The notes beneath the pieces were generated by a model. That model did not search any database. It was not told the origin of the DNA and saw nothing but the letters and a program-made list of their open reading frames with translations. Of a DNA stretch of 64,000 nucleotides, positions 17,583-19,724 are shown piece by piece. The position numbers were made by a program, and so were the translations under genes. How positions within the stretch are numbered: position 1 is the stretch's first letter; each line of letters opens with the position of its first letter. Source of the DNA: the human T2T-CHM13v2.0 reference genome, Homo sapiens; the NCBI RefSeq assembly GCF_009914755.1, contig NC_060928.1; one strand, given 5' to 3'.

Positions 17583-18536
17583 ACAATGAGATCACATGGA
17601 CACAGGAAGGGGAATATCACACTCTGGGGACTGTGGTGGGGTTGGGGGAGGGGGGAGGGATAGTATTGGGAGATATACCTAATGCTAGATGACACATTAG
17701 TGGGTGCAGCGCACCAGCATGGCACATGTATACATATGTAACTAACCTGCACAATGTGCACATGTACCCTAAAACTTAGAGTATAATAAAAAAAATAAAA
17801 TAAAATAAAATAAAAATAAATGAAAAAAAAAAAAAAACAAAAAACAAAAAAAGAAAAAAAAAAAAAAAAAAGACCCAAACAGGCCAATAACTATTAGTTA
17901 TTATCTCTACTGAAAAAGTGGGACTTCCTGTTATGAATAAGGGAACTAACTGAATTCCCTGCTACCTAATTACCTTCTGTAGCTATACTTACTGACAAAA
18001 ACACCATTAATTTTTTTAGATACCAATTTTTTTTAATACTATGAATCTTAAGGGAAAATGGCTTCACCTCAAAAATACTCTGTTACTTGCTTGGAAGATA
18101 GACGACTTTAAGCTGATGCTGATAAACTTGTGGCTTCCAAAGTTTTCCTTACTAATTCTAAACCCAAAAGGTGCCTGGCAGTCTCTGCTATGTCTGTTTC
18201 AAGTAACCCTAGCTCTATATCAGGAGACATTTTCCTTATAAACAGAAACATGGTAAATCTTAAGTTCCCTGCAATTGAAATGCTTGGCTGTGAATTTGAT
18301 TTCATAATCAGAGCGGACTCTATAGTCTTTTCATTCAATATTCCTGCAATTAGATAACCAATCGCAGCCTAGAAACAACCTCCAAGGAGACCCAGTGACA
18401 TTGCTCCCATAGTTGATGCAACAATCACCATGATGACCCAAGCTTTAATCACTCTGATGAACACTGCTCTCCTGCCTAGAGATACCACTGAGTCCAGAAG
18501 CAAGACCTGTGAGAGTGCACAGTGCCACTTCGCCCC

Positions 18537-19724
18537 ATGGCTGAAGATGGTTTGCCCAAAATTTATTCTCATCCTCCAACAGAAAGCAGTAAAACACCAA
18601 CTGCAGCAACCATTTTCTTTGGGGCTGACAATGCTATTCCCAAATCAGAAACAACTATTACTTCAGAAGGAGACCACGTCACTTCAGTAAATGAATATAT
18701 GCTAGAAAGCGATTTTTCAACAACTACAGACAACAAACTGACAGCTAAAAAGGAAAAACTCAAATCAGAAGATGATATGGGGACCGACTTTATTAAGTCA
18801 ACAACTCACCTACAGAAAGAAATTACCTCTCTGACTGGCACTACAAACTCCATAACAAGAGACTCTATTACCGAACATTTCATGCCAGTGAAAATTGGGA
18901 ATATTTCATCACCAGTTACTACTGTTTCTTTAATAGATTTTTCCACTGACATAGCAAAAGAAGATATCCTCTTAGCTACCATTGACACAGGAGATGCAGA
19001 GATCTCAATAACCTCTGAAGTCTCTGGCACACTAAAGGACAGCAGTGCTGGTGTTGCTGACGCTCCTGCCTTTCCACGTAAAAAGGATGAAGCTGATATG
19101 AGCAATTATAATTCCTCCATCAAATCCAATGTCCCTGCTGATGAGGCTGTCCAGGTCACTGATTCCATTATTCCTGAGGCTGAAATCCCTCCTGCTCCTG
19201 AAGAAAGCTTCACTACTATTCCAGACATAACTGCCCTTGAAGAAGAGAAAATAACCGAAATTGACCTAAGTGTTTTAGAAGATGACACCAGTGCTGTGGC
19301 TACATTAACTGACTCTGATGAGAAGTTTATCACTGTGTTTGAACTCACTACCTCTGCTGAAAAAGACAAAGATAAACGGGAAGATACTCTGCTAACTGAT
19401 GAAGAAACTACCGAGGGAGCCAGTATTGGGATGGAGAGAGATACTGCAAATGAAGCAGAGACCCATTCTGTTTTGCTTACTGCTGTTGAATCCAGATATG
19501 ACTTCGTTGTCCCTGCATCAATAGCTACAAACCTAGTGGAAGAATCATCTACAGAAGAAGATTTGTCTGAAACTGATAATACAGAGACTGTACCTAAGAT
19601 CACTGAGCCATTTTCTGGAACTACCTCTGTATTAGATACCCCAGACTATAAGGAAGACACCTCCACAACTGAAACGGATATCTTTGAACTACTGAAAGAA
19701 GAACCCGATGAGTTCATGATTTAA
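18537..19724 (+). CDS. CABS1: Calcium-binding and spermatid-specific protein 1 (395 aa)
   Basis: [17 protein letters not shown]...EEPDEFMI recognised; ATG in good Kozak context (cgccccATGG); single coding exon; lies upstream of SMR3A as expected. Confidence 0.96.

What the first reader, a model, noticed from the sequence alone, without database searches (positions are those of the whole stretch)
17884..19724. CABS1 may be the surviving C-terminal piece of the giant ORF
Seen: with the L1 removed, the relic is contiguous with 650 bp of coding-like, repeat-free DNA (ORFs at 18130 and 18430 share a frame) that leads directly into CABS1. CABS1 is on the same strand, has an intronless CDS, similar T/S/D/E composition, and no signal peptide, unlike its SCPP neighbours. 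Inference: CABS1 arose through an internal testis promoter inside a giant exon (gene fission). The CABS1 frame is currently closed by TGA at 18510.
Basis: inference. Interest (0 to 1): 0.75.

Follow-up and report, generated by a model that had tools for sequence, protein, structure and literature searches.

The report
CABS1 beside a dead giant gene
Human CABS1 lies about 2 kb downstream of the decayed remains of a very large single-exon secreted-protein gene that is still intact in other mammals; in placental mammals the two are separate genes, but one protein from an unnamed, more distant animal carries both sequences in a single chain, so an ancient split remains a real possibility for the origin of CABS1.

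Summary
The relic is real. It is a + strand, ~2.04-kb-module ORF wreck running from window -1114 to about 11,100, unannotated in the table given.

Its orthologues are intact in other placentals (21 proteins of 1,959-4,802 aa; several start with an MKILVL-type signal peptide).

- Relic homology ends near 10,787, with a faint trace to about 11,069-11,100. That is where three intact orthologues share one stop.
- About 1.3 kb of stop-riddled DNA lies between that point and the L1.
- The 653 bp after the L1 is no more open than shuffled sequence (355 of 2000 shuffles).
- The two small ORFs are out of frame with CABS1.
- None of the 22 giant-type proteins examined contains CABS1-like sequence, and profile-profile comparison gives 0.3-0.7% probability.
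- The 120 listed CABS1 orthologues extend at most 26 aa upstream.

One result points the other way. A CABS1 profile search of 1.84 billion proteins found P0163 (1,564 aa, unnamed). Its N-terminal 775 aa match the giant's module, and its last 337 aa are an end-to-end CABS1 homologue with Val in place of Met1.

An ancient, pre-placental fission is therefore my leading explanation (~0.4). Its polarity is unproven, and I could not obtain the DNA behind P0163.

The parts
1..11100 (+). Window part of the relic of a giant single-exon gene. The exon starts at about window -1114, outside the window. It is broken by frameshifts and stops and lacks about 740 aa found in intact orthologues.
   Evidence: ORF list. 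tblastn of 22 giant-type proteins maps collinearly from -1114 to 10787. 21 long orthologues at 50-57% identity.
1136..10041 (+). Tandem ~2.04-kb (~670 aa) modules. Copies start near 1136, 3144, 5183, 7220 and 9355; the last is partial.
   Evidence: Self-blastn, e.g. 3139-7681 vs 5179-9768 at 62.3% over 4683 columns. The same 4.5-module layout is seen in the intact orthologues.
10161..11100 (+). Relic of the giant protein's C-terminal tail and the approximate place of its ancestral stop codon.
   Evidence: Tails of P0124, P0125, P0126 and P0129 match 10161-10778/10787 at 51-56% identity. A weak full-tail alignment of P0125 reaches 11069. P0124, P0125 and P0126 end at the same residue.
11101..12386 (+). 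Non-coding interval after the relic. It holds candidate poly(A) hexamers at 11400 (ATTAAA), 11900 (AATAAA) and 12124 (ATTAAA).
   Evidence: 31-36 stops per frame, longest open run 54 codons. Hexamer scan. No similarity to the modules or to CABS1.
12387..17882 (+). L1 insertion (12400-17869 including the A-tail) with 13-bp target-site duplications at 12387-12399 and 17870-17882.
   Evidence: Sequence read directly. L1 ORF1/ORF2-like ORFs. Masked in the hub table.
17883..18477 (+). Unique DNA upstream of the annotated CABS1 transcription start; presumed CABS1 promoter, not decayed coding sequence.
   Evidence: Open runs no longer than in shuffles (355 of 2000). No hit from any giant-type protein or from P0163 residues 776-1227. 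TSS from the hub table.
18478..18536 (+). CABS1 5'UTR, with in-frame TGA at 18510-18512. The six codons before the ATG (TVPLRP) match the MVPLCP extension seen in 26 of 120 orthologues.
   Evidence: hub table.
18537..19724 (+). CABS1 coding sequence (395 aa), Pfam PF15367 over its full length.
   Evidence: Pfam 675 bits, residues 1-395. 151 homologues, 120 listed. P0163 residues 1228-1344 align to 18537-18842 starting exactly at the ATG.
19725..20614 (+). CABS1 3'UTR (exon 1 to 19843, intron, exon 2 20464-20614), with AATAAA at 20589.
   Evidence: Hub table; hexamer scan.

Best explanation
SHOWN. In humans and every placental sampled there are two separate transcription units on the same strand.
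1. A giant gene of the SCPP cluster. It has a signal peptide, then one exon of about 12-14 kb encoding about 1,500 aa of unique sequence, 4.5 modules of about 670 aa, and a short tail. It is intact in carnivores, bats, ruminants, camel and tree shrew, and is a frameshifted, partly deleted pseudogene in human.
2. CABS1, a protein of about 395 aa without a signal peptide, with its own start site 59 nt before the ATG.
The giant's ancestral stop maps to about window 11.1 kb. The roughly 1.95 kb between it and the CABS1 ATG (L1 excluded) is ordinary non-coding DNA that now serves as 3' flank and CABS1 promoter/5'UTR.

INFERRED. The two genes are nevertheless related by descent of position, not by repeat homology. 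The CABS1 coding sequence began as the extreme 3' end of the giant exon, an arrangement still seen in the unnamed protein P0163 (module-like N-terminus, 55-aa repeats, CABS1-like C-terminus with Val where placentals have Met1).

Before the placental radiation, the frame was cut by a stop and a poly(A) site upstream. The downstream piece acquired an ATG and a promoter of its own, turning the tail of a secreted protein into an intracellular protein.

The loss of the giant gene on the human lineage is a separate event.
For: Separate genes in placentals:
- 21 long orthologues of the relic plus P0002.
- 0 of these 22 proteins are hit by a 109-sequence CABS1 HMM, even at E<=100 with filters off.
- P0124, P0125 and P0126 share one C-terminus.
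- CABS1 and the giant are annotated side by side in Gulo, Cervus and Tupaia.
- Of 120 listed CABS1 orthologues, 91 start at the MAEDG-type Met, 26 have a 6-aa extension, 2 have 19 aa and 1 has 26 aa; none is longer.

Link between the two genes:
- The CABS1 profile searched against 1.84 billion representatives gave 22 hits. The only long one is P0163, with profile positions 2-128 on residues 1229-1372.
- My CABS1 HMM matches P0163 at 1229-1374 and 1394-1562, collinear from CABS1 residue 2 to the C-terminus.
- Pfam PF15367 scores 57.7 bits on its last 337 aa, against a cut-off of 27.
- The module HMM matches P0163 6-440 (i-E 3.9e-17) and 438-775 (9.9e-5).
- Controls: module HMM 62.0 bits vs at most 4.7 in 500 full shuffles, and 78.0 vs at most 1.8 in 500 20-aa-window shuffles. 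CABS1 HMM 57.3 vs at most 2.2.
- blastp with composition correction hits 11 of the 22 giant-type proteins (12 alignments at E<=0.01); those I checked against module starts lie in the same module register.
- tblastn of P0163 on the window hits both the relic frame (1442-1678, E 0.003) and CABS1 from its ATG (E 3.5e-9).
- In the whole human genome, the only P0163 match reported is the CABS1 locus.
- P0160, a second unnamed CABS1-like protein, also lacks the initiator Met.
- P0163 and P0160 fall outside all 23 sampled placentals.

Parsimony (inference): a 395-codon frame is more easily inherited from an existing long frame than born de novo. This also explains the same strand, the intronless CDS, the shared composition and the missing signal peptide.

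A 2025 paper states that the origin of CABS1 'remains unclear' (PMC12457735, passages read).
Against: - The fused state rests on one unnamed protein. I could not see its DNA, so an intron-bridged gene model or a misassembly is not excluded.
- Its source organism is unknown.
- Polarity is not established. An unrooted tree cannot tell fission in placentals from fusion in the P0163 lineage.
- No similarity was found between the placental giant's tail, or the human intergenic DNA, and P0163 residues 776-1228.
- A weak, non-significant module-like stretch (module positions 299-387, i-E 0.63) lies only about 55 aa before the CABS1-like part of P0163. If real, it would fit a deletion-fusion at least as well.
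- Single-sequence phmmer of whole P0163 against the giants found nothing. An HMM of the full-length giant alignment also found nothing at E<=10. Only the module profile, blastp and phmmer on residues 1-440 (6 of 50 modules at E<=1e-3) see the match.
- 275 of the 453 linking residues are a 5x55-aa tandem repeat, which stays open once one unit is open.
Confidence: 0.4

Rival explanations
1. Derived fusion. CABS1 arose independently (de novo, or from sequence no longer recognisable) next to the giant gene. In the P0163 lineage a deletion or loss of the giant's stop and terminator later joined the two frames. Placentals keep the ancestral, separate state.
For: - Separate genes in all four placental superorders sampled for CABS1, including Afrotheria and Xenarthra.
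- No detectable homology between CABS1 and any part of the placental giant.
- A weak module-like stretch lies just upstream of the CABS1-like part of P0163, as a deletion-fusion would leave.
- The giants' 3' ends differ between orders, so the region is labile in both directions.
Against: - It needs an extra, unexplained birth of a 395-codon gene.
- It needs an in-frame join.
- Two divergent unnamed sequences (P0163, P0160) both lack the initiator Met.
- Shared composition, strand and intronless CDS would be coincidence.
Confidence: 0.28
2. No biological link. P0163 is an artefact (a gene model that bridges two neighbouring same-strand genes, or a chimeric contig). CABS1 and the giant gene are unrelated neighbours everywhere.
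For: - Only one such protein among 22 profile hits.
- Automated models often merge adjacent same-strand genes (general knowledge).
- P0163 starts mid-module, so it is not a complete gene.
- Pfam on the whole protein did not report PF15367.
Against: - The CABS1-like part has Val, not Met, at the start position, and the frame continues upstream through 453 linking residues of the same compositional type.
- The Atlas holds the sequence letter for letter. From recall, such collections are largely intron-blind ORF calls, but no call here showed how this record was predicted.
- Both homologies survive shuffling controls.
Confidence: 0.2
3. CABS1 is a diverged copy of the ~670-aa module, or of the giant's tail, made by partial tandem duplication rather than by cutting the frame.
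For: - The top hhalign alignment always pairs the most conserved CABS1 block (about 204-331, [21 protein letters not shown]...AVESR) with the most conserved module block (59-190).
- tblastn without composition correction gives E 0.018 in the correct relic frame.
Against: - hhalign probability 0.3-0.7%, P 0.08-0.24.
- With composition correction, the tblastn E-value is 3.1.
- CABS1 HMM: 0 of 22 giant-type proteins.
- Tail HMM against 109 CABS1 orthologues: best E 2 at Z=1000.
Confidence: 0.07
4. In the human or primate lineage the giant frame ran on through 17884-18536 into CABS1, and CABS1 is what survived when the rest decayed.
For: Same strand, clean L1 insertion, small ORFs upstream of CABS1.
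Against: - Intact orthologues stop about 2 kb upstream of the CABS1 position.
- 11100-12398 is full of stops.
- The upstream ORFs are at chance level and out of frame.
- CABS1 is a separate gene of about 395 aa across placentals.
Confidence: 0.02

Closest known systems
Pfam PF15367 (CABS1, calcium-binding and spermatid-specific protein 1)
   Same: Human 18537-19724 matches the model end to end (675 bits). The last 337 aa of P0163 (57.7 bits) and P0160 (49.9 bits) pass the curated cut-off of 27.
   Different: In P0163 the domain is the C-terminal fifth of a 1,564-aa chain and has no initiator Met. All 120 listed placental members are stand-alone proteins of 345-512 aa.
SCPP-cluster genes with one very large repetitive exon (ENAM, MUC7 and the 'orphan mucins' discussed in PMC12457735; the gene examples are partly recalled)
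   Same: Location between CSN3 and SMR3A (hub table). An MK-I/L-L-V-L hydrophobic N-terminus in 6 of the orthologues. A long Ser/Thr-rich, Cys-poor tandem-repeat exon.
   Different: No Pfam family. The modules are about 670 aa, far longer than mucin repeats. Not Pro/Gln-rich. Not named in the papers I could search.
Unitary pseudogenes of the human SCPP cluster (CSN1S2AP/BP; PMC12457735, passages read)
   Same: A cluster gene intact in other mammals and dead in human.
   Different: This relic has no row in the hub's RefSeq table and is roughly 12 kb of single exon with a ~2.2-kb internal deletion.
Gene fission and 'out of testis' birth of new genes (general concept; recalled, e.g. the Drosophila monkey-king fission)
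   Same: One ancestral frame corresponds to two collinear same-strand genes, and the downstream product is testis-expressed.
   Different: Classic cases go through duplication and complementary degeneration. Here no duplicate is seen, the cut would lie inside a single exon, and polarity is unproven.

Membership tests
Pfam PF15367 CABS1 | Full-length match above the curated gathering score | tested here: met
   Human CABS1 675.1 bits, residues 1-395 on model 1-397.
Pfam PF15367 CABS1 | Does the giant gene (relic ORF 143-3337, or orthologues P0124, P0126, P0138) contain the domain? | tested here: not met
   No PF15367 hit at E<=1. My 109-sequence CABS1 HMM with filters off: 0 of 22 proteins at E<=100.
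Giant-gene ~670-aa module family (defined here) | CABS1 aligns significantly to the module profile | tested here: not met
   hhalign probability 0.72% / 0.3% / 0.26-0.33%. tblastn E 3.1 with composition correction.
Giant-gene ~670-aa module family (defined here) | P0163 N-terminal region aligns significantly to the module profile, beyond composition | tested here: met
   i-E 3.9e-17 and 9.9e-5. 62.0 bits vs at most 4.7, and 78.0 vs at most 1.8, in 500 shuffles each. blastp E about 1e-4. Against: whole-protein phmmer and the full-length giant HMM found nothing.
Gene fission (one ancestral frame, two collinear descendant genes) | A fused form exists in another lineage, collinear with the two genes | tested here: met
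   P0163 has the module-like part N-terminal and the CABS1-like part C-terminal, the same order as on the human + strand. This rests on one unnamed protein.
Gene fission (one ancestral frame, two collinear descendant genes) | The fused form is one uninterrupted ORF or transcript, not a model join | not testable with these tools
   No DNA for P0163. The genome-contig scan found none. The Atlas gave no context.
Gene fission (one ancestral frame, two collinear descendant genes) | The fused state is ancestral (outgroup polarity) | not testable with these tools
   The tree is unrooted. No marsupial, monotreme or sauropsid DNA is held. In Table S1 of PMC12457735, the passages I saw list no CABS1 for platypus.
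SCPP gene family (for the giant gene) | Lies in the chr4 SCPP cluster | tested here: met
   Window lies between CSN3 and SMR3A (hub table). Relic at -1114 to about 11100.
SCPP gene family (for the giant gene) | N-terminal signal peptide on a small separate exon | tested here: inconclusive
   Six orthologues start MKILV[LP]...; hydropathy was computed for four of them and is +0.9 to +1.3. Human homology starts at orthologue residue 17, which fits an exon boundary. No signal-peptide predictor was run and the human leader exon was not located.
SCPP gene family (for the giant gene) | SXE phosphorylation motifs, phase-0 introns, sequence relation to a known SCPP | not tested
   Only the absence of any Pfam hit is known.

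The most novel reading that the evidence does not exclude
CABS1, whose origin a 2025 study calls unclear, was born when the last ~1 kb of a ~14-kb single-exon secreted-protein gene of the SCPP cluster was cut off by a new stop and gained its own ATG and spermatid promoter before the placental radiation. The uncut form survives in a non-placental lineage (P0163). The parent gene is an undescribed, still intact giant gene in many mammals and a unitary pseudogene in humans.
Probability: 0.4. Interest if true: 0.75.

Novelty: new member of a known kind. Interest (0 to 1): 0.6.

Why it matters
- It would give CABS1, a sperm-flagellum protein sitting oddly inside the SCPP cluster without a signal peptide, a concrete origin. 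That would answer a question left open in print (PMC12457735, passages read).
- It would add a clean vertebrate example of a secreted protein's tail becoming an intracellular testis protein through a cut inside a single exon.
- Independently of that, the work shows that the 'empty' CSN3-CABS1 interval of the human genome holds the wreck of a gene of about 4,000-4,800 aa. That gene is intact but uncharacterised in carnivores, bats, ruminants, camel and tree shrew, so it is a candidate human or primate gene loss.
- Five literature searches turned up no description of either the giant gene or the link. Subscription papers, figures and most supplements were not visible to me.

Tried and rejected
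- Direct similarity of 17883-20614 and of CABS1 to the relic: nothing significant.
- CABS1 HMM vs giants and hhalign vs the module, whole-giant, tail and widened profiles: negative, so 'CABS1 is a module copy' was dropped.
- Tail HMM vs P0163 and P0160: no significant hit; best domain i-E 15 (P0160). Tail HMM vs 109 CABS1 orthologues: best E 2.
- tblastn of P0163 residues 776-1227 on the human intergenic DNA: no hit.
- Whole-protein phmmer of P0163 vs giants and the full-length giant HMM vs P0163: no hits. Reported as evidence against.
- Pfam on whole P0163: no PF15367. It was seen only when the C-terminal part was scanned alone.
- Atlas look-up of P0163: sequence present, no neighbours and no taxa.
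- Genome-contig scan for P0163 DNA: 34 pattern matches, none confirmed.
- Promoter motifs (CRE, TATA) in 18300-18480: none found.
- Literature: no paper on the giant gene or on CABS1 ancestry beyond the 'origin unclear' remark.
- Supplement of PMC12457735: only short passages were seen. Its Orthofinder sheet could not be keyed to CABS1 because my recalled Ensembl protein id was absent.
- I did not run a signal-peptide predictor, structure prediction or complex prediction. CABS1 and the giants look disordered and none of these would bear on the question.
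Full report
**What is in the window.** The + strand from position 1 to about 11,100 is the wreck of a very long reading frame. Stop-to-stop ORFs of 1065, 437, 598, 296 and 204 aa and others follow one another in shifting frames. Self-comparison shows a tandem module of about 2.04 kb, with copies starting near 1136, 3144, 5183, 7220 and 9355 (the last partial) at 58-62% DNA identity. A + strand L1 (12400-17869 with its A-tail) is flanked by the 13-bp duplication AAGACCCAAACAG at 12387-12399 and 17870-17882, so it is a clean insertion that can legitimately be removed in thought. 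CABS1 follows: TSS 18478 (hub table), in-frame TGA at 18510-18512, ATG at 18537, stop at 19722-19724, with the CDS entirely in exon 1.

**The relic is a real gene elsewhere.** The 1065-aa ORF finds 21 proteins of 1,959-4,802 aa at 50-57% identity and one of 1,560 aa at 60%.
- Named records come from Gulo gulo, Glossophaga mutica, Phyllostomus discolor (LOC118499675), Capra hircus, Capra ibex, Cervus hanglu, Camelus ferus and Tupaia chinensis.
- Six start MKILV[LP]...; four of these were scored and have hydrophobic N-termini.
- They show the same 4.5-module layout from about residue 1,500.
- They have no Pfam family.
- With 20 kb fetched upstream of the window, orthologue residues 17-162 map to window -1114 to -674 and residues ~900-969 map to -695 to -495. 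The human exon therefore starts near -1114 and has lost about 740 codons, besides its frameshifts.
- The hub table has no row for it, and five literature searches found no description.

The furthest-reaching orthologues (P0124, P0125, P0126, P0129) match the human DNA strongly up to 10778-10787. A weak full-tail alignment of P0125 reaches 11069. P0124, P0125 and P0126 end at the same residue...EENS[QW]L[EQ]FN. Bat, goat and tree-shrew proteins end earlier, at human-equivalent 9230-10092. The giant's stop therefore lies at or before about 11.1 kb.
- Downstream, 11100-12398 has 31-36 stops per frame and three poly(A) hexamers.
- The 653 bp after the L1 has a longest open run of 81 codons. That is reached by 355 of 2000 shuffles and exceeded on the minus strand.
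- No giant-type protein hits anything beyond 10787.

The claims of contiguity and 'coding-like' DNA therefore fail. The remaining observations stand: strand, intronless CDS, TGA, no signal peptide, and broadly similar composition (r 0.82-0.84).

**CABS1 in placentals.** The search returned 151 homologues, of which 120 were listed. All carry PF15367 and are 345-512 aa. They include Afrotheria (Loxodonta, Dugong, Chrysochloris) and Xenarthra (Dasypus, Choloepus, Tamandua).

Of the 120, 91 start at the MAEDG-type Met, 26 carry a 6-aa MVPLCP-type extension, 2 carry 19 aa and 1 carries 26 aa. The 26-aa extension (P0090) is homologous to part of the human frame-1 ORF, so that ORF reflects alignable 5'UTR rather than old coding sequence.

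CABS1 and the giant gene are annotated side by side in Gulo (same 227-kb contig), Cervus hanglu (tags G4228_004476 and G4228_004477) and Tupaia (same contig). A 109-sequence CABS1 HMM with all filters off hits 0 of 22 giant-type proteins at E<=100. hhalign gives 0.72% against the module, 0.3% against the whole giant and 0.1% against the tail. Widened profiles do not help.

**The surprise.** A profile of 43 CABS1 orthologues (alignment A1) was run against 1.84 billion representatives and returned 22 hits. Twenty are of placental type (full-length or fragments). Two are distant: P0160 (247 aa) and P0163 (1,564 aa).
- In P0163 the CABS1-like region is the C-terminus. Residues 1229-1374 and 1394-1562 align collinearly to CABS1 2-130 and 232-395.
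- It reads VAEDPSPKIYSP... where placentals read [12 protein letters not shown]....
- Pfam confirms it when the last 337 aa are scanned alone (57.7 bits). The whole-protein scan had missed it.
- Upstream, residues 6-440 and 438-775 match the giant's module HMM (i-E 3.9e-17 and 9.9e-5).
- Composition-preserving controls are clean: 62.0 bits vs at most 4.7 (500 full shuffles); 78.0 vs at most 1.8 (500 20-aa-window shuffles); CABS1 HMM 57.3 vs at most 2.2.
- blastp with composition correction hits 11 of the 22 giant-type proteins; those I checked lie in the same module register.
- On the human window, P0163 hits both the relic frame (1442-1678) and CABS1 starting exactly at the ATG (18537-18842, 41.5% identity).
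- In the whole human genome the only reported match is CABS1 (a stricter first look was used, so weak matches may be missing).
- Between the two parts lie 453 residues, 275 of them a 5x55-aa tandem repeat.

Results against this reading: whole-protein phmmer and a full-length giant HMM see no relation. P0163 starts mid-module, so it is a fragment. Its organism and DNA are unknown.

**Reading.** P0163 and P0160 sit outside all 23 placentals sampled, on a long branch, but that tree cannot be rooted. Three readings remain.
- Ancestral continuous frame, cut before the placental radiation (fission).
- Secondary fusion in the P0163 lineage.
- An artefactual join.

I favour fission at 0.4. It explains the origin of a 395-codon frame without a separate birth. 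It also explains the shared strand, the intronless CDS, the composition and the missing signal peptide, and both distant sequences lack Met1. Fusion gets 0.28 and artefact 0.2. The literal human-level version is essentially excluded.

In Table S1 of PMC12457735, the passages I saw list opossum CABS1 only as an Ensembl transcript and list no CABS1 for platypus between CSN3 and AMBN. The figure showing which species carry CABS1 is not held.

**Verdict.** Observation partly confirmed; interpretation partly supported. It is wrong in its local anatomy and timing, but possibly right in its core. The result is a new example of a known kind (gene fission or fusion, plus a unitary pseudogene), with a clear decisive test in marsupial and outgroup genomes.

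Noticed in passing
window -1114 to about 11100 (upstream part in L002): The human relic of the giant gene has no row in the hub table. It lacks about 740 codons (orthologue residues ~163-900) and is broken into a dozen or more ORF pieces, yet keeps a 1065-aa open stretch. No orthologue closer than 60% identity was returned, so its state in other primates is unknown.
   Followed up: partly
P0123-P0143 (orthologues of window 143-3337): The giant proteins end at different places in different orders. Carnivore-type ones have 4.5 modules plus a tail. Two phyllostomid-type sequences end at the same ...ELENRANNSL near the start of module 5, and two Capra sequences end at ...FEPKDFI. The 3' end of this gene seems evolutionarily labile.
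   Followed up: partly
window 18519-18536: Human TVPLRP before the ATG corresponds to an in-frame MVPLCP extension with its own upstream Met in 26 of 120 orthologues (carnivores, bats, ruminants, armadillo, dugong). Primates seem to have lost that upstream ATG (ACA in human).
   Followed up: partly
P0027 (Tupaia chinensis CABS1, 512 aa): It contains an internal tandem expansion of the ...[21 protein letters not shown]... block, which also draws a Pfam beta-helix label. CABS1 itself can grow by in-frame repeats.
   Followed up: no
P0163 residues about 880-1150: Five nearly identical ~55-aa tandem repeats (SAPGGDRISFEKQDSET...) lie between the module-like and CABS1-like parts. They look like a recent in-frame minisatellite expansion.
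   Followed up: no
window 12400-17869: The L1 has an open ORF1-sized frame (12567-13691), but its ORF2 is split into pieces of 901, 116 and 264 aa. It is slightly 5'-truncated and flanked by a perfect 13-bp duplication.
   Followed up: no
window 18108-18644, minus strand: Minus-strand ORFs of 86 and 91 aa overlap the CABS1 promoter and start. A mouse paper's abstract (PMC7827751, search listing only) reports an antisense lncRNA at Cabs1. I did not examine this.
   Followed up: no
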